64,000 nt of DNA, taken from the NCBI GenBank assembly GCA_963693055.1, contig OY843751.1, positions 736,001 to 800,000 of the forward strand, written 5' to 3'. Of this stretch, positions 47,707 through 54,197 are shown piece by piece. Position 1 is the first letter of the stretch, and every line of letters begins with the position of its first letter. This stretch comes from a bacterium. Its GTDB lineage: Bacteria; Zhuqueibacterota; Zhuqueibacteria; Residuimicrobiales; Krinioviventaceae. The notes below the pieces were generated by a model. The model did no database searches and was not told the origin of the DNA. It saw only the letters and a list, made by a program, of their open reading frames with translations. A program made the position numbers and the translations under genes.

Positions 47707-47731
47707 ACCCGGAATGTGTTAATTCCGGGTT
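47707..47731. terminator. Hairpin between convergent genes
   Basis: ACCCGGAAT / ATTCCGGGT inverted repeat in an A/T-rich context. Confidence 0.65.
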
Positions 47732-50238
47732 TATTTTCCTTTGCTCATGGCTTCCTGAATTGCAGTGAGCAGACCTGACTGGTCAAAGGGCTTTCTTACC
47801 AGCCGGTAACCTTCTTCGGGAAGGTGACCGGTATCTAACATGTCATGACTGTAGCCACTGGCAAAGACAATGGGGAGGTGGGGGTGATTTATTCGAATAT
47901 GATCATGCACCATGCGTCCGCTTTTTTTCGGCATAACAACATCCAAAAGGACAAGATCTATAGCCTTTACATGTTTTTCAAATTTCTCAATTGCGTTTTC
48001 GCCGTCAATAGCAGTAATAATATTGTATCCTGCTTGTTCTAAAATGAGTTCGGCGAGTTCACGTACCTGCTCGTCATCTTCTGCTAATAGTATTGTTTCA
48101 CCGGTACCTTTTAATTCTTTGTATTGTTTTTGTTTTTCTGCTTCAATGGTACTGGTTTGATCTGAATTGGCCGGCAGATAGATTTTAAAAACAGTACCCA
48201 TACCTTCTTCGCTATAAAGATTAATAAATCCACCATGTCGTTTGGTTATTGCATACACGGTTGACAAGCCCAGCCCGGTACCTTCGCCAACCGCTTTGGT
48301 AGTAAAAAAGGGCTCAAAAATACGGTCTTTAATTTCTTTGGGAATGCCTTTACCGGTATCGCTCACATTTATTGCTACATAGTTCCCTTCCTGTGCTTCC
48401 GCATGGATTTGACAGTATTCTTTTGAAAGCAGAATGTTTTCAGTCTCTATAGTAAGCTTGCCTCCATCGGGCATTGCGTCTCTGGCATTTACACAAAGAT
48501 TGAGTATAATTTGCTCTACCTGTCCGGGATCAGCTTGTAATATTTGTAGATCAGCACCGGGATGAAAACTCAGATCTATATGTTCACCAATAATCCTGCG
48601 AATCATTTTTAACAGCCCGCTGGTAAGATCGTTCAGGTCGATTTGTTTCAACTGCAAGGTTTCACGTCTGCTAAAGGCTAGTAATTGGCGCACGAGTGCT
48701 GTTGCCCGTTCTGATGCTTTGGCTACATGGTCAAGGGTTTTTCTGGCAGGGTTATCTTCTCCCAAGATATCCTGGGTCATCTCTGTGTATCCGGCAATGA
48801 CCTGAAGCATATTGTTAAAATCATGCGCTACACCTCCGGCAAGTTGACCAATGGCTTCCATCTTTTGGGACTGGCGGATTTGCCCCTCTAGTTCCAATTC
48901 ACGAGTAATATCATGATTTACGCTGACAAAGTTGGTAATATTTCCATCTTCATCGCGAATTGGAGATATCTCTACCTCTTCTGTGTACAGTGTTCCGTCC
49001 TTTTTCTTGTTTATGACCTGAGATTTCCAGATTTTACCGGATAAAATTGTCTTCCATAATGCCTTGTAATATTCAGGATCATGTTCGCCACTTTTTAATA
49101 TTCTTGGGTTTTCGCCAATTGCCTCTTTGCGACTGTATCCGCTCAACCTTTCAAAAGCCGGATTTACATACTGCATGGTACCTTCAATATCCGTAATAAT
49201 TACAACTTCTGATGCTTGCTCAATCGCTCTGGCAAGACGAGTGTTCTCTTCAAGGGCTTTTTTCTGTGCTGATATGTCAACCAAGATTCCATCAACATAG
49301 TTCATTGTTGGGCCTTTAACCAGTGTAGCCCAGATTTTGCAATAAAGGGGAGTACCATCTTTTTTCTTTAATGCCAGGTCAAAATTGTCAACTTTGCTGT
49401 TCTCGAGTAATAATTTGTTAAATTCTTTAAACTTGAACGCGTCCAGATAAAAATTTGATAAAGGGTTTTTTGAAAATTCTTCAAAGGAACTAAAGCCAAA
49501 CATTTTAAAAGCAGCAGGATTAGCAAGTATCATTTTCCCATTTTCCTGATAGTGTCTACGATAAATGCCAACAGGAAGCTGGTTCAATAATGTGCGGTAT
49601 TTGTTTTCGCTTTCGATTAATGCCTTTTCTGAATTTTTTGTTTCTGTTATATCCCTTATAACACTGTGAATCTGATCAAGTTCTCCTAAATTGTTAGTGC
49701 TGGGTCTGCTTTCCAGTTCAATTATTAGAATATTACTATTATTGCTACGAATTTCCAGTTCTGTTGTAATATTATCAATATTGTTTTTCAGATTTTGGAT
49801 ATGTTGCTCAAGCAGTTTAATGGATCTTGAAGTGAGAAGGTCTGAAAAATGTCGTCCGATAACATCGTAACGGGTATATTCAAAACTATCAAGCCATGTT
49901 TGATTTATATCAATCAGCACTCCCGTGGAATCCATGCTTTGATAGGCAATAGGTGCTTTTTCAAAAAGATCCTGAAATCTTAATTCGCTGTATACAAGTT
50001 TTTGAGCATAGATATTAAGGCGTTTAAGCAATAACCCGGTAATTAATCCAATGATACCACCAACTGTTATTGGTATTAAATACCATTTGGGTTCTATGGG
50101 GATACTAAAAATTGTTCGTTGTATTGTGGCAACTGTTGCAAGTGTTGTCGAACCTATTAAAAAGGAAAATATACCCCGTTTTATCCAGGGGAGTAGTGGA
50201 TGTGATGATTTCGGGCTTTTGAGTGCATGTTGGTTCAT
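47731..50238 (-). CDS. Hybrid PAS sensor histidine kinase with receiver domain (CckA-like architecture)
   Basis: Two TM, PAS x3, GQLAGGVAHDFNN, NARDAMPDGG, GTGLGLS, receiver ILLAEDD...DVVMP; AAGGAG RBS before ATG 50238. Confidence 0.93.
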   Translation of the reverse strand: MNQHALKSPKSSHPLLPWIKRGIFSFLIGSTTLATVATIQRTIFSIPIEPKWYLIPITVGGIIGLITGLLLKRLNIYAQKLVYSELRFQDLFEKAPIAYQSMDSTGVLIDINQTWLDSFEYTRYDVIGRHFSDLLTSRSIKLLEQHIQNLKNNIDNITTELEIRSNNSNILIIELESRPSTNNLGELDQIHSVIRDITETKNSEKALIESENKYRTLLNQLPVGIYRRHYQENGKMILANPAAFKMFGFSSFEEFSKNPLSNFYLDAFKFKEFNKLLLENSKVDNFDLALKKKDGTPLYCKIWATLVKGPTMNYVDGILVDISAQKKALEENTRLARAIEQASEVVIITDIEGTMQYVNPAFERLSGYSRKEAIGENPRILKSGEHDPEYYKALWKTILSGKIWKSQVINKKKDGTLYTEEVEISPIRDEDGNITNFVSVNHDITRELELEGQIRQSQKMEAIGQLAGGVAHDFNNMLQVIAGYTEMTQDILGEDNPARKTLDHVAKASERATALVRQLLAFSRRETLQLKQIDLNDLTSGLLKMIRRIIGEHIDLSFHPGADLQILQADPGQVEQIILNLCVNARDAMPDGGKLTIETENILLSKEYCQIHAEAQEGNYVAINVSDTGKGIPKEIKDRIFEPFFTTKAVGEGTGLGLSTVYAITKRHGGFINLYSEEGMGTVFKIYLPANSDQTSTIEAEKQKQYKELKGTGETILLAEDDEQVRELAELILEQAGYNIITAIDGENAIEKFEKHVKAIDLVLLDVVMPKKSGRMVHDHIRINHPHLPIVFASGYSHDMLDTGHLPEEGYRLVRKPFDQSGLLTAIQEAMSKGK

Positions 50239-50462
50239 TGACTGTCTCCTTTTACAATAGAAATCTATTATGTCCATTTGGAGGCCAATAAATTATATAT
50301 AAGCAATTCCTAATATTGCAGGTAAGGACAAACCCTGATATTTTTTCCCATGGCCTTGTTATGTAATTATATGATTTTCTTTGATTGTGTGCAAGTTAAA
50401 TATTTGTTTTTTATAAAATATGCAACCATGTCCGGCAATGAGAACCGAACATGGTTTGCAAT

Positions 50463-50774
50463 TCAGGACGAAAATGCCTGATGTGCATCAATGCAACCGA
50501 GTTCAACTGCTTCCTGTAAAATATCAACATGTCCCAATCGTTTAAAATAGAGGGACGCATAATTGCGTTGTACCAGGCTGCCTTGAAATAAATAGTAGCG
50601 AATTCTTGCACGGCCTTCCTGCGAGTCAACCAGTCCCAGCGCGTAATCAAGAATTTTATAGCTGCCAATACCTTTGGCGTCGTTCAGATACTGCATCAAA
50701 ATGTCAATATTTTCTGCAGTGCCTGCTTTTGCTATTTGGCTGAGTTTGTCCATGGTTAACAGGTGGGTCGTCAT
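50463..50774 (-). CDS. Hypothetical 103-aa helical protein downstream of the tandem attenuators
   Basis: Strong RBS (GGGAGGTGG) before ATG 50774; no family recognised. Confidence 0.75.
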   Translation of the reverse strand: MTTHLLTMDKLSQIAKAGTAENIDILMQYLNDAKGIGSYKILDYALGLVDSQEGRARIRYYLFQGSLVQRNYASLYFKRLGHVDILQEAVELGCIDAHQAFSS

Positions 50775-50808: not shown

Positions 50809-50845
50809 AAAAAAAAAGCCCCGTTCTTTGCGTGAACGGGGCTTT
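50809..50845 (-). terminator. Attenuator terminator 2
   Basis: Minus strand AAAGCCCCGTTC-ACGCAAA-GAACGGGGC followed by T9. Confidence 0.9.
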
Positions 50846-50867: not shown

Positions 50868-51032
50868 TTATGGCCCCGTTTTATTTAAAATATCGTCAGT
50901 GCAATCACAATCATCATTCATGGTATCTACAGCATCAAATACATTCGAGCAAACCGCGCGAGTTCCAATGCAGATGGATTTGTACATGTTGTCTATGATG
51001 TTTATGAAAATAGTTGATTTGTTGAATTGCAT
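50868..51032 (-). CDS. Asp-rich leader peptide 2 (54 aa)
   Basis: AAGGA RBS; manual translation MQFNKSTIFINIIDNMYKSICIGTRAVCSNVFDAVDTMNDDCDCTDDILNKTGP*. Its 3' end (AACGGGGC) is complementary to the 5' arm of terminator 2. Confidence 0.75.
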   Translation of the reverse strand: MQFNKSTIFINIIDNMYKSICIGTRAVCSNVFDAVDTMNDDCDCTDDILNKTGP

Positions 51033-51054: not shown

Positions 51055-51090
51055 AAAAAAGCCCCGCTCCTGATTGGGAACGAGGCTTTT
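51055..51090 (-). terminator. Attenuator terminator 1
   Basis: Minus strand AAAAGCCTCGTTCC-CAATCA-GGAGCGGGGC followed by T6 (two G-U pairs in the stem). Confidence 0.85.
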
Positions 51091-51111
51091 AAAAATTTAT
51101 TTGTAAATTTT

Positions 51112-51225
51112 TTATTGCCTCAATCCCAGCGGTGCATTATCATCAATATCAAAATCAACAACATCAAAGCAGACTGGTGCCCATGCATTGATAATAATGT
51201 TGAGATATGTTGTTGTTGTTTTCAT
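51112..51225 (-). CDS. Asp-rich leader peptide 1 (37 aa)
   Basis: Manual translation MKTTTTYLNIIINAWAPVCFDVVDFDIDDNAPLGLRQ*. Its 3' end (TGGGATTGAGGC) is complementary to the 5' arm of terminator 1. The AAGGA RBS is rather far upstream (about 15 nt). Confidence 0.7.
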   Translation of the reverse strand: MKTTTTYLNIIINAWAPVCFDVVDFDIDDNAPLGLRQ

Positions 51226-51265
51226 ATTGATTGTTTTATTTCCTTAAAAATTTTAATGAGCAATA

Positions 51266-51293
51266 AATATAGCAAATTTTTAGATTAATGCAA
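51266..51293 (-). promoter_or_regulatory. Sigma70-type promoter for the attenuated transcript
   Basis: TTGCAT, 16-bp spacer, TATATT, with an extended -10 TG; about 40 nt upstream of leader 1. Confidence 0.55.
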
Positions 51294-51305: not shown

Positions 51306-54128
51306 TTATTTTAATAAAACCATCCTCTGAATAGATGTGTATGGATCTGCTTTTAGTTTTAACCAATAAATACCGGAACTGACGGGTAAATTTGATTGAT
51401 TGGTCCCGTTCCAGAAAAGTTGATGACTTCCCAAAGACATATTCCTGTTAATTAATTCTTTAACAACTCTGCCATAAACATCATAAATTGTTAGTTTTAC
51501 TTTTGCAGGTTTTGGCAGGTCAAAGCGGATGCTGGTTCCTGCATTAAATGGATTGGGGAAATTGGGATAGAGTTGAAATTCAATCGGCAGTTTTTCATTG
51601 TTATCATCAATTCCTGTGCCTTTTTGAATAGAGAAATTAAAGGCTTGCTCGCATTCAGTTAAATGATCGTCCAGGTCAATTGCGGTAACGCTCCACTGGT
51701 AGCTGTCACCTGCTAAAAGATTTGTGTTGATCTGAAAGGAATTGCCTACAACATATTGGTCAATAATTATCGTTTCAATTCCTGTCATTTGTTTTACAAC
51801 AAGATGATAAGTAATGTTATCACCGAGATCATTATCGTCCGCCTTTTCCCATCTTAATTCCGGAGTTAATGTGGAAAGTGTACTTTGGTCTTCCGGAGTC
51901 ATGAGCCGAAATCCATCAGGGGCCTTATTGTCAATAAACATTGCACCCAGATCCCAATTGCCGAATGTCTGGCGGTCGCGACCATAATAATCTGTTAAGA
52001 ACCAGTCAAGTGCCGGTCCATTTTGGCGGGCAGGAGAAAGTGTCAGCAGGTAAACATCTGATACCATGTTGGGCATATTGTTACCATACACAAGTAAAGG
52101 ATCACCATCGAGTGAACCTAAAGTATTAATGGTGTTATTTTTATTTCTCCAGTATTCCTGGAACAGTTCTATGGTTGAGAAATTTCGTTCATAGGTAGGC
52201 AGTTCTTCATCGCGGTAATGAATAATTGCATTATTAACCGATAATGGGCCCGTACCATATAAATTATGGTGCATAATATGCGAGTGTCCGGCAACATCTG
52301 CAATGCTGAGCTGGAATTCGGCATTGTTGTAAATAATATTGCCAATAATCGTTTCAGCTTCAATCTGCCGTGACCCGGATATTGTGGTTACTAAAGCCAG
52401 TCCTGCTTTGTAACCTGCATGCTCGCTTATTCCATTTGCCACAATGGTATTGTAAAGAACTTGGCAATATTTACTGGCAGTTATAGCGATACCTGCTCCT
52501 TCATTTCCGAAACAGATATTATTATAAATCCAGGTGCTGTCTGCGCCCTGATCTGCAATAATGCCATTGCCGTCGCTCCACCAGTCGGCACCCACAGTGC
52601 CGGCAGTACCCTGGTTATTATTGCTGCTAACATTACGTTTGACAATATTTCCTATACTTGTTCCATGAATGTTAATTCCGCTGCAACCGCCATGCATCCA
52701 GCCATTGTTCCAGACCGAGTTATGTTCAACAATATTGTGTGAGCCATTGACACTGATACCCCATGCGCCATTGTTCAGGCTTTGATTATGAGAAACACTG
52801 CCATTATTTGAATTGGATAACGATAATCCCGAGGCACCGCAATCCTGGACCACATTGTTTTCAATAACAATACCGGAAAGGGGAGAATCTTCCGAATATA
52901 CATAAATACCATGACCGGCCCGACCACCGTCTTTGGGATATTTGATCCATGAACTGTCGTATTCGGTTTTATCGATAGTAGCGGGGTAGCTGATTTTACT
53001 GATAGTATTTTCATTAATTGTTATATCGTTTGTGTTTTGAACATGTATTGCAGAAAAACTGTTCACAATTTCAAAGCCCGAGTTATCGGGATCTCCGGAG
53101 ATATTATTCAAGATGATCTGGTTTCCTGGACCGGCATTGGTAACCGCAATATGTGAAGAATGTTGTTCCACAGGAGAGCCATTCTCCCAAAATGTGCATG
53201 ACTGAACAAGATTATCTGTCGAATTACTGCCAATAATGGAAAGGGCAGATTCTCCCATATTGTTGGAAAAGTTGCATATGTTGACTCTTGTTGTATTTGC
53301 ATGACTTAGCAGGCAGCAAATCCCTGAATTGTTGTTAAAGCGATTGTCAAAAACACTATTTTCAATGGGGATAGAGTTTGACTCTTTGAACTCATCCGGC
53401 TCTATTCCAATAGATAATGCAATGCCTGAAAGATTGGAAAATTCATTATAGGAGATATCGGTAAATGAGGTGTGGGAACACCATACACCGCGCTCGGTTA
53501 TGGTATCTGATTGTGTAAATGTATTTTTCAGAATGCGGTTATAATCTCCCGCAGAATCAAGGTATATATGTGCATCCCATACTCTTTCTACATTTCCTGT
53601 ATTGGTAAAGGTACATTCAGAGATTTCATTGTATGATGATGTATTAAAAACATGGATTGCGGCAGAACCCTGGTTATTTGTAAATGAACAATTGCTGATT
53701 TTATTGTAATGTGAATTGTCGAGCAAGATGGGTTTACGATTTTTCAAACAGTTTGCGAATATAAAATTTTGAATATGTATAAATGAGGCGTCTGTCAAAT
53801 CAAGTGCATACGTACCGTCCCATGAATCAGCTGTCAGCGTTGGGATTTCGTTTTCGTAAGCCATGATCACAATGGGATTCAGAGCGGTACCAGATGCATT
53901 AACCTCTATTTTTTCAGAATAGGTACCGTAACGAACAAAAAGTGTATCACCCTGAACAAGGTAGGGTACTGCATGAGATATTGTTTTGAACGGACCGTGA
54001 TTATCGGTTACAATCGGTGCAAGGCCATCAAATGCATCGTTACCGCCGCTTTGAGCGACATACCAGGTTTCGGAATAGAGTGTGGCTGTTGAGAATAGTA
54101 GTATAATGAGCAAGAATCGTTTAATCAT
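51306..54128 (-). CDS. Secreted parallel beta-helix (pectin-lyase-fold) protein with Fn3-like domain and T9SS type-A/FlgD-like CTD
   Basis: Signal peptide; WYVAQSGGND...GPFKTISHA...GDTLFVRYGTYSE N-cap; many Asn-rich beta-helix repeats; WDLGA; C-terminal PNFPNPFNAGTSIRF...SSGIYWLKL. Confidence 0.85.
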   Translation of the reverse strand: MIKRFLLIILLFSTATLYSETWYVAQSGGNDAFDGLAPIVTDNHGPFKTISHAVPYLVQGDTLFVRYGTYSEKIEVNASGTALNPIVIMAYENEIPTLTADSWDGTYALDLTDASFIHIQNFIFANCLKNRKPILLDNSHYNKISNCSFTNNQGSAAIHVFNTSSYNEISECTFTNTGNVERVWDAHIYLDSAGDYNRILKNTFTQSDTITERGVWCSHTSFTDISYNEFSNLSGIALSIGIEPDEFKESNSIPIENSVFDNRFNNNSGICCLLSHANTTRVNICNFSNNMGESALSIIGSNSTDNLVQSCTFWENGSPVEQHSSHIAVTNAGPGNQIILNNISGDPDNSGFEIVNSFSAIHVQNTNDITINENTISKISYPATIDKTEYDSSWIKYPKDGGRAGHGIYVYSEDSPLSGIVIENNVVQDCGASGLSLSNSNNGSVSHNQSLNNGAWGISVNGSHNIVEHNSVWNNGWMHGGCSGINIHGTSIGNIVKRNVSSNNNQGTAGTVGADWWSDGNGIIADQGADSTWIYNNICFGNEGAGIAITASKYCQVLYNTIVANGISEHAGYKAGLALVTTISGSRQIEAETIIGNIIYNNAEFQLSIADVAGHSHIMHHNLYGTGPLSVNNAIIHYRDEELPTYERNFSTIELFQEYWRNKNNTINTLGSLDGDPLLVYGNNMPNMVSDVYLLTLSPARQNGPALDWFLTDYYGRDRQTFGNWDLGAMFIDNKAPDGFRLMTPEDQSTLSTLTPELRWEKADDNDLGDNITYHLVVKQMTGIETIIIDQYVVGNSFQINTNLLAGDSYQWSVTAIDLDDHLTECEQAFNFSIQKGTGIDDNNEKLPIEFQLYPNFPNPFNAGTSIRFDLPKPAKVKLTIYDVYGRVVKELINRNMSLGSHQLFWNGTNQSNLPVSSGIYWLKLKADPYTSIQRMVLLK

Positions 54129-54162
54129 GGTTCCTTTCCGGTATTGGTAAATGCTGATAGTA

Positions 54163-54178
54163 TACAAATTGTGTGCCA
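54163..54178 (-). promoter_or_regulatory. Candidate sigma54 (-24/-12) promoter
   Basis: Minus strand TGGCAC-ACAAT-TTGTA, about 35 nt before ATG 54128; one mismatch to TGGCAC-N5-TTGC. Confidence 0.45.
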
Positions 54179-54197
54179 AATTCCAAATGAAAAAGCG

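What the first reader, a model, noticed from the sequence alone, without database searches (positions are those of the whole stretch)
51055..51225. Attenuator unit 1: five Asp codons in nine, a 12-nt antiterminator and an N-terminal Thr4/Ile3 stretch
Seen: the peptide is MKTTTTYLNIIINAWAPVCFDVVDFDIDDNAPLGLRQ and all five Asp codons are GAT. TGGGATTGAGGC (51128-51117) can pair with GCCTCGTTCCCA (51086-51075) through 10 Watson-Crick pairs, one G-U and one mismatch, which would sequester the terminator's 5' arm. The last Asp codon ends 10 nt before this segment. Established: Thr and Ile are the control residues of thr-operon leaders and both derive from aspartate. Inference: the unit could read out the wider aspartate family, but the Thr/Ile codons lie far from the switch and may be incidental.
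Basis: partly seen in the sequence, partly recalled or inferred. Interest (0 to 1): 0.7.

Follow-up and report, generated by a model that had tools for sequence, protein, structure and literature searches.

The report
Asp-marked ribosome switch before helical protein
A 37-codon mini-gene with five aspartate codons ends on an RNA segment that matches the transcription stop behind it, so a ribosome slowed before that segment would likely switch on a small helical-repeat gene of unknown job, and the same aspartate-marked design recurs in distant bacteria without any aspartate-pathway gene behind it.

Summary
Observation confirmed: peptide, five GAT codons (21-29), 12-nt duplex (10 WC, 1 G-U, 1 mismatch), 10-nt gap. 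It is the first of two tandem leader-ORF/antiterminator/terminator units before a 103-aa HEAT-like gene (50774-50463). The design precedes homologs in 45 of 84 loci, with antiterminators that change along with their terminators. Asp, and less so Cys, is enriched just upstream of the switch in 11 other lineages; Glu, Asn, Thr and Ile are not.

The Thr/Ile 'aspartate family' reading fails. The ACA Thr codons and the AUG pair with the Asp block in a 20-bp helix, all-GAT is ordinary here (p=0.22), and this genome's Lys/Thr/Met leader sits before asd.

Best reading: a ribosome-mediated attenuator most sensitive to slow Asp decoding, predicted to open also on any early translation block. The inducing signal and the target's job are untested; antibiotic arrest is the main rival. 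The scan noted this system before in other genomes (e1-9546175, e1-6401326). New variant of a known kind.

The parts
51266..51293 (-). Promoter-like TTGCAT-16-TATATT with TG before the -10; likely start of the leader transcript
   Evidence: Read by eye; not listed by the consensus scan; both hexamers kept in G001; similar boxes precede the leaders in G005, G014, G022. Inferred.
51241..51245 (-). SD-like AAGGA, 15 nt before the ATG (off the genome mode of 6-7 nt)
   Evidence: 14 nt in G001
51112..51225 (-). Leader ORF 1 (37 aa)
   Evidence: same length in G001, 3 synonymous and 3 non-synonymous codon changes, no indel, while flanks carry 1-2 nt indels
51211..51231 (-). 5' arm of helix A: start codon, its 6 upstream bases and the ACA codons of Thr3-5
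   Evidence: 20 Watson-Crick pairs with 51163-51142; -22.0 kcal/mol vs synonymous mean -8.9, 0 of 300 variants as strong
51139..51165 (-). Asp block (codons 21-29, five GAT); also 3' arm of helix A (51163-51142)
   Evidence: G001 adds a sixth Asp (N30D)
51117..51128 (-). Antiterminator 1 (codons 33-37)
51055..51086 (-). Intrinsic terminator 1 (stem 51086-51061, U6)
   Evidence: -17.1 kcal/mol
50868..51032 (-). Leader ORF 2 (54 aa, 8 Asp, 4 Cys in its last 35 codons region)
   Evidence: G001 indels inside it are 3 and 9 nt, in frame
50873..50880 (-). Antiterminator 2 (8 perfect pairs with 50842-50835)
50809..50842 (-). Intrinsic terminator 2 (stem 50842-50818, U9)
50463..50774 (-). Gated gene: 103-aa all-helical HEAT-like protein, no named family
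   Evidence: 20 synonymous vs 2 non-synonymous changes against G001
50424..50456 (-). 13-pair hairpin after the gated gene, followed by a promoter-like site (50393-50366) for the next gene; suggests a monocistronic target here
   Evidence: inferred

Best explanation
The 37-codon ORF, the 12-nt duplex and the terminator form the first of two tandem switches that likely act as ribosome-mediated transcription attenuators, predicted to let RNA polymerase through to a small HEAT-like gene when the ribosome is slowed, most likely while decoding Asp codons. Shown: the parts, their complementarity, their conservation with the same target gene and the Asp enrichment. Predicted by folding: a ribosome with its P-site at or before codon ~28-31 leaves the antiterminator free; from codon 32 on it covers it and the terminator forms; with no ribosome the antiterminator also forms, so the unit is fail-open, and helix A would shut the AUG once the Asp block is free, leaving only the pioneer ribosome to decide. 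Inferred: the variable leader peptides keep Asp (not Glu or Asn) because low or damaged Asp-tRNA(Asp) is the stress read best, in the way the whiB7 uORF keeps Ala and mgtP keeps Pro before non-biosynthetic genes; two units in series would multiply, sharpening the response; the target is a stress-protective binding module. Odds: attenuator architecture about 0.9; Asp decoding as main trigger about 0.5.
For: Duplex and geometry; switch point in ribosome-footprint folding; the same scan recovers His-, Trp-, Phe/Tyr- and Lys-rich leaders in this genome, so the organism uses this mechanism (DAHP synthase and asd confirmed, hisG/trpB/trpE recognised by eye). Leader+terminator before 45 of 84 homolog loci. 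Own antiterminator/terminator pairs average -14.1 vs -9.6 kcal/mol for swapped pairs, 0 of 100000 permutations (14 representatives). Terminator stem 100% paired, 3 of 8 pairs with two-sided changes in 25 GC-rich leaders. Asp within codons -13..-4 of the antiterminator in 44 of 48 units; in 11 lineage representatives, leaving out the window's two units and one frame I chose after seeing its Asp, Asp 17 of 99 (p=1.5e-4), Glu 7, Asn 3. KSB1-type leaders carry several Asp in no fixed peptide context, as tRNA-sensing leaders do. In GC-rich loci these Asp are GAT:GAC 35:5 against 57:187 in the gated genes (mostly one lineage), not explained by pairing to the start (5 of 41 leaders) or by a consensus structure. 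Three loci lacking an intrinsic terminator still have Asp-rich uORFs before C-rich tracts. Precedents: PMC10274678 (abstract, section 7), PMC3641672 (abstract).
Against: No expression, toeprint or Ribo-seq data. The SD-like motif is 15 nt from the ATG; only 16 AGGA sites lie at that spacing among 3907 long ORFs, near background. No Asp-metabolism gene follows the target in the loci I could view (output partly cut). Most GC-rich leaders have one Asp only, in a hydrophobic-x-Asp-Cys context at codon 9-12, which looks like an arrest peptide. Cys is enriched as strongly (7 of 99, p=3.5e-5), unexplained. Four of 48 units lack Asp in the window. In this unit part of the Asp block's letters is demanded by helix A. 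The lineages share ancestry, so p-values overstate. Own antiterminator beat shuffles at 5% in 10 of 14 representatives only. At full-length equilibrium unit 2 always folds as terminator; its switch needs co-transcriptional kinetics.
Confidence: 0.5

Rival explanations
1. Same switch, but the trigger is drug- or stress-dependent ribosome arrest on the nascent peptide (erm/bmrB/vmlR/toiL type); Asp is conserved as part of a hydrophobic-x-Asp(-Cys) arrest motif, and the HEAT-like protein is a resistance or stress factor.
For: In GC-rich loci a -10-like box lies about 6-12 nt before the leader ATG and Asp falls at codon 9-12 after a hydrophobic run, like ErmBL, which stalls with Asp10 GAU in the P-site (PMC6238534, passage). 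The unit is fail-open in folding, so any early block would induce. 15 of 84 homolog loci sit instead behind a PadR-like gene (PF03551 hit on 8 of the 12 of these scanned). An MFS efflux gene follows in G005/G014 and an ABC transporter in L022. Precedent: PMC13689557 (passages), PMC12121999 (abstract).
Against: In this unit Asp starts at codon 21 and recurs five times; no fixed residue precedes it (F, V, F, I, D), and the Ala/Ser/Thr penultimate context recalled for phenicols is absent. Synonymous GAT bias is not predicted by peptide arrest. Downstream genes are mostly unlinked. No plasmid match.
Confidence: 0.33
2. The unit reads the aspartate family through Asp plus the N-terminal Thr4/Ile3 codons, like a thr-operon leader.
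For: Thr4 and Ile3 are present and kept in G001; stalls at Thr3-6 would leave the antiterminator free in folding; G005/G014 leaders have Thr runs too.
Against: Thr/Ile not enriched near the switch; Thr codons are explained by helix A; Rfam Thr_leader 21.8 bits vs cut-off 55, covering 51118-51053 only; target is not an enzyme of the pathway; asd has its own Lys/Thr/Met leader.
Confidence: 0.05
3. The leaders sense queuosine or another tRNA(Asp) anticodon modification through GAU decoding.
For: GAT bias in GC-rich leaders; tgt present over cut-off in 5 of 5 genomes tested.
Against: Other Q-read codons (Asn, Tyr, His) are not enriched; G005 unit 1, both unit-2 windows of G005/G014, L040 and L045 use only GAC near the switch; here the GAT letters serve helix A.
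Confidence: 0.06
4. The ORF is not translated; terminator 1 ends the upstream secreted-protein gene and the complementarity is fixed RNA structure or a protein-binding leader.
For: No hairpin between the upstream stop (51306) and the ORF; poor SD spacing; helix A buries the AUG; uORF1 changes against G001 are 3 synonymous to 3 non-synonymous.
Against: Upstream genes differ between genomes while ORF, antiterminator, terminator and target stay together; indels keep frame inside ORFs only; Asp is kept in frame as GAT or GAC in different sequence contexts; stops lie 21-36 nt before the terminator in most units.
Confidence: 0.06

Closest known systems
Classical leader-peptide attenuators (trpL, hisL, pheL, thrL, leuL; mechanism as described in PMC2659441, passages)
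   Same: Short ORF with clustered codons of one amino acid, antiterminator under its last codons, intrinsic terminator 25 nt after the stop; the genome's own His, Trp, Phe/Tyr and Lys leaders score alike.
   Different: Control residue Asp; target is not a biosynthetic gene or synthetase; two units in series; predicted read-through, not super-attenuation, when untranslated.
whiB7 uORF of mycobacteria (PMC10274678: abstract and section 7 read)
   Same: Leader variable in length and sequence but enriched in one amino acid, gating a non-enzymatic stress gene by antitermination; responds to tRNA shortage and translation stalling.
   Different: Ala rather than Asp; target is a transcription factor with a shown loop to aspC; here target function is unknown and no homology was sought or seen.
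Salmonella mgtCBR leader, mgtM + mgtP (PMC3641672: abstract read)
   Same: Tandem attenuators; a tRNA-sensing codon cluster (Pro) controlling a non-biosynthetic operon.
   Different: There the two units read different signals; here both are Asp-rich with near-identical terminators.
Antibiotic-induced attenuators bmrCD, vmlR, tlrB (PMC13689557, passages), ErmBL (PMC6238534, passage), toiL (PMC12121999, abstract)
   Same: uORF stall frees an antiterminator; ErmBL stalls at Asp10 after hydrophobic residues, as positioned in the GC-rich relatives.
   Different: No known resistance family downstream; Asp repeated and late in this unit; no drug tested.

Membership tests
Ribosome-mediated transcription attenuator (general) | Short ORF ending just before an intrinsic terminator | tested here: met
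   stop 25 nt before the stem
Ribosome-mediated transcription attenuator (general) | Antiterminator in the ORF's 3' end, exclusive with the terminator | tested here: met
Ribosome-mediated transcription attenuator (general) | Ribosome position decides the fold | tested here: met
   In silico only: switch at P-site codon 28-32
Ribosome-mediated transcription attenuator (general) | Antiterminator co-varies with terminator in relatives | tested here: met
   10 of 14 representatives individually beat shuffles at 5%
Ribosome-mediated transcription attenuator (general) | Leader is translated and read-through is inducible | not testable with these tools
   no RNA run listed; indirect frame conservation only
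thr-operon leader (Rfam RF00506) | Model score over gathering cut-off | tested here: not met
   21.8 vs 55 bits
thr-operon leader (Rfam RF00506) | Thr/Ile control codons next to the switch, conserved | tested here: not met
thr-operon leader (Rfam RF00506) | Aspartate-family biosynthesis genes downstream | tested here: not met
Amino-acid-starvation leader with cognate operon | Clustered cognate codons within stalling distance | tested here: met
   Asp
Amino-acid-starvation leader with cognate operon | Downstream gene makes, imports or charges that amino acid | tested here: not met
   HEAT-like protein with no enzyme family; an indirect role is not excluded
Antibiotic-sensing arrest leader (erm/vmlR type) | Conserved arrest motif at fixed distance from the start | tested here: inconclusive
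   Asp at codon 9-12 in GC-rich group, 21-29 here
Antibiotic-sensing arrest leader (erm/vmlR type) | Resistance gene downstream | tested here: inconclusive
   target unnamed; efflux genes follow in G005/G014 and L022 only
Antibiotic-sensing arrest leader (erm/vmlR type) | Drug-induced stall | not testable with these tools
   needs toeprinting
HEAT-repeat proteins (target) | Stacked helical hairpins; profile match | tested here: inconclusive
   seven-helix model pLDDT 92; best Z 7.3 to alphaRep; HEAT_2 in 2 of 119 members; Atlas look-alikes HEAT_2

The most novel reading that the evidence does not exclude
A cross-phylum surveillance switch for attack on Asp-tRNA supply (AspRS poisons of the microcin C kind, or tRNA(Asp)-cutting toxins) rather than for hunger: Asp-codon leaders turn on a free-standing HEAT-like module that binds or neutralises the agent, and the same module serves as the C-terminal sensor of TIR, SEFIR, caspase, kinase, KAP-NTPase, MarR and acetyltransferase proteins in other bacteria.
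Probability: 0.12. Interest if true: 0.8.

Novelty: new variant of a known kind. Interest (0 to 1): 0.45.

Why it matters
The paper searches found no Asp-codon leader-peptide attenuator (open-access library only). If Asp decoding is the signal, this adds an amino acid to the attenuation repertoire and uses it to control a non-metabolic gene, giving a direct handle on the function of a widespread unnamed helical domain that is also fused to immune-type effectors. If a drug is the signal, the leader points to an unknown resistance or stress factor. Either way a 0.45-kb reporter fusion decides it. The mechanism class itself is textbook.

Tried and rejected
Rfam: 47 matches up to E 10, none near its cut-off. 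NCBIfam/Pfam name neither leader nor target; PADLOC 0 for the target; PDB by sequence only a designed alphaRep at E 0.016; Foldseek none at E<=0.001; wide structure search best Z 7.3. No second copy of either leader or of the target in G000. Single-protein searches found 2 proteins and 1 locus; the alignment was needed. Antiterminator-terminator pattern over 167 genomes: 16 matches, 8 are the tandem units of G000/G001/G005/G014, the other 8 have no terminator or leader, so no second regulon member was found with this pattern. No match in plasmids or viral contigs. No RNA holder listed; contigs of X5/X6 repeat the G001-like differences, X4 has short identical pieces. Complex of target with this genome's AspRS: no answer. 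The representative-protein search was queued and never returned. One search aligned opposite strands and was discarded. General start/Asp-block pairing as cause of GAT: only 5 of 41 leaders. Acidic-residue sensing: Glu not enriched. Tree: quick method only, 30 of 72 branches open. PMC13410324 has no 'Asp' passage. Paper searches with no hit; with only unrelated or precedent hits: 57, 69, 77, 91, 92, 102. Supplements were not read; closed-access comparative studies of attenuation could hold an Asp leader.

Full report
Check of the observation. On the minus strand ORF 51225-51112 encodes the stated peptide. Asp codons 21, 24, 26, 28 and 29 are GAT, the last ending 10 nt before 51128; the 12-mer pairs with the terminator's 5' arm by 10 Watson-Crick pairs, one G-U and one mismatch; AAGGA ends 15 nt before the ATG. 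The terminator is 51086-51061 plus six U. The Asp cluster is unusual (p=0.002, post hoc) but the all-GAT pattern is not (GAT is 74% of Asp codons; p=0.22). The duplex ranks 2nd of 329 strong terminators of the genome for upstream complementarity.

Anatomy. The unit is the first of two. Directly behind it lie ORF 51032-50868 (54 aa, eight Asp), antiterminator 50880-50873 and terminator 50842-50809, then a 103-aa gene at 50774-50463. A promoter-like site at 51293-51266 was read by eye. Folding with a ribosome footprint gives a switch: before the 3' arm is made, the antiterminator forms with no ribosome and with the P-site up to codon 31, and is lost from codon 32; unit 2 behaves alike around codons 47-49. 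At full-length equilibrium unit 1 flips at codons 27-29, whereas unit 2 always ends as terminator, so it depends on folding order. The third-position U of four of the five Asp codons pairs in it. This accounts for the Thr run and for the codon choice in this unit. It is not general: 5 of 41 leaders pass the same test at 10%, two of them this unit and its G001 copy.

The genome as control. A scan of G000 for uORF + terminator + antiterminator gave 81 candidates; units 1 and 2 head the list, followed by His-, Phe/Tyr-, Trp- (two) and Lys/Thr/Met-rich leaders. DAHP synthase and asd behind two of these were confirmed; hisG, trpB and trpE are recognised by eye. The asd leader peptide is identical in G001 and a Lys/Thr/Ile leader precedes asd in G014; none was seen in G022 or G079. 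No such leader was seen before the three aspartokinases or aspS. So the aspartate family has its own attenuator elsewhere.

Relatives. The target occurs in 6 of 167 genomes of the phylum (a same-order homolog is labelled candidate division KSB1) and 78 metagenome loci; 382 proteins match the profile. Of 84 loci, 45 have leader + terminator (43 analysed plus two duplicates), 15 follow a PadR-like gene, 9 have under 200 nt upstream, 15 are other. G001, G005, G014 and L023 have two units; G079 has two terminators with one clear ORF. Against G001, uORF1 has no indel, uORF2 has 3- and 9-nt indels, and 1-2-nt indels fall outside the ORFs. Antiterminators change with their terminators: own pairs -14.1, swapped -9.6 kcal/mol, 0 of 100000 permutations; 10 of 14 beat shuffles individually. 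Three loci have Asp-rich uORFs followed by C-rich, G-poor tracts without an intrinsic terminator, possibly a Rho-dependent form (inferred). A quick tree places leaders on both sides of the midpoint and most PadR loci in one weakly supported group, so the leader is probably inherited, not reinvented, and counts across loci are not independent.

What is conserved in the leaders. Peptides are unalignable across groups, but Asp lies 4-13 codons before the antiterminator in 44 of 48 units (ORFs picked by hand, antiterminator position corrected by hand in six). With one representative per lineage and without the window's units and L023 unit 1, Asp is 17 of 99 residues (background 6.3%), Cys 7 of 99 (0.9%); Glu 7, Asn 3, Thr 3, Ile 3 are at or under background. 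In loci of 55% GC or more these Asp are GAT:GAC 35:5 against 57:187 in the gated genes, largely one lineage; in 25 aligned leaders GAT is the only nearly invariant codon and is unpaired in the consensus. G005/G014, L040 and L045 use GAC, which argues against queuosine sensing. In the GC-rich group a -10-like box lies about 6-12 nt before the ATG, suggesting near-leaderless translation, and Asp falls at codon 9-12 after hydrophobic residues.

The target. It folds as seven helices (pLDDT 92), resembles HEAT solenoids without a specific match and has no family name. In 56 of 56 longer homologs it is the C-terminal domain, behind TIR, SEFIR, KAP NTPase, kinase, caspase, MarR, RimJ/RimL acetyltransferase, hydrolase or TPR domains, which suggests a binding module (inference).

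Mechanism. Attenuation is well supported but not shown experimentally. For the signal I commit to slowed Asp decoding (0.5): Asp-specific, Glu-blind, repeated in free context here, with a synonymous bias elsewhere, and with precedents for one-residue-enriched leaders before non-biosynthetic genes (whiB7, PMC10274678 abstract and section 7; mgtP, PMC3641672 abstract). Drug-dependent arrest is the main rival (0.33): single Asp at ErmBL-like position (PMC6238534 passage), fail-open folding, PadR as alternative regulator, efflux neighbours (PMC13689557 passages, PMC12121999 abstract). The two are not exclusive, as whiB7 shows. The Cys enrichment and the weak SD remain unexplained. Microcin C as an AspRS poison and the phenicol context rule are recalled, not from a call.

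Comparison and verdict. It works like a classical leader-peptide attenuator; it is not a thr leader (and above) and fails the cognate-operon feature of starvation leaders. The searches named under Tried and rejected found no Asp-codon attenuator in the open library. Two earlier notes of this scan describe the same system in other genomes; my reading was recorded before seeing them and agrees on architecture; helix A, the asd control and the Glu/Asn contrast come from my calls. New variant of a known kind, interest 0.45.

Noticed in passing
G000:C1:3747454 (-), locus L100; G001 L135; G014 L136: 20-codon leader with 7 Lys, 3 Thr, 3 Met plus terminator before asd; peptide identical in G001, Lys/Thr/Ile leader in G014: a candidate Lys-sensing classical attenuator.
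   Followed up: partly
G000:C1:2919258 (-), 4335485 (+), 1871583 (-), 2710122 (+): His-, Trp- (two) and Phe/Tyr-rich leaders with terminators before genes that look like hisG, trpB, trpE and confirmed DAHP synthase.
   Followed up: partly
L064, L074, L047 upstream of the homolog: Asp-rich uORF, small hairpin at the stop, then C-rich G-poor tract and no intrinsic terminator: possible Rho-dependent version of the switch.
   Followed up: partly
L073, L075 about 100-170 nt before the homolog: Shared tandem palindromes instead of a leader, likely a repressor box.
   Followed up: no
L055: PadR gene, then Asp-Cys leader with terminator, then the homolog: both regulatory modes at one locus.
   Followed up: partly
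P0121-P0176; L084: The unnamed helical domain is always C-terminal in fusions to TIR, SEFIR, caspase, kinase, KAP NTPase, MarR and acetyltransferase domains; L084 is a TIR-like fusion next to an ATPase gene; an effector-associated domain gene (EAD7) follows the homolog in L048.
   Followed up: partly
G000:C1:2073566 (+): 35-codon ORF with terminator and -10.4 kcal/mol upstream duplex before a 390-aa membrane-looking gene; no amino-acid bias.
   Followed up: no
G000:C1:4754467 (+): 54-aa ORF ending in a Pro/Asp-rich run followed by a terminator before a 1096-aa secreted protein.
   Followed up: no
window 47731-50277 vs G001 L102:939-4739: The PAS histidine kinase behind the target is 848 aa here and 1267 aa in G001.
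   Followed up: no
window 51306-54179 (-): Secreted beta-helix protein with FlgD/T9SS-like C-terminal domain; no terminator hairpin between it and the leader.
   Followed up: partly
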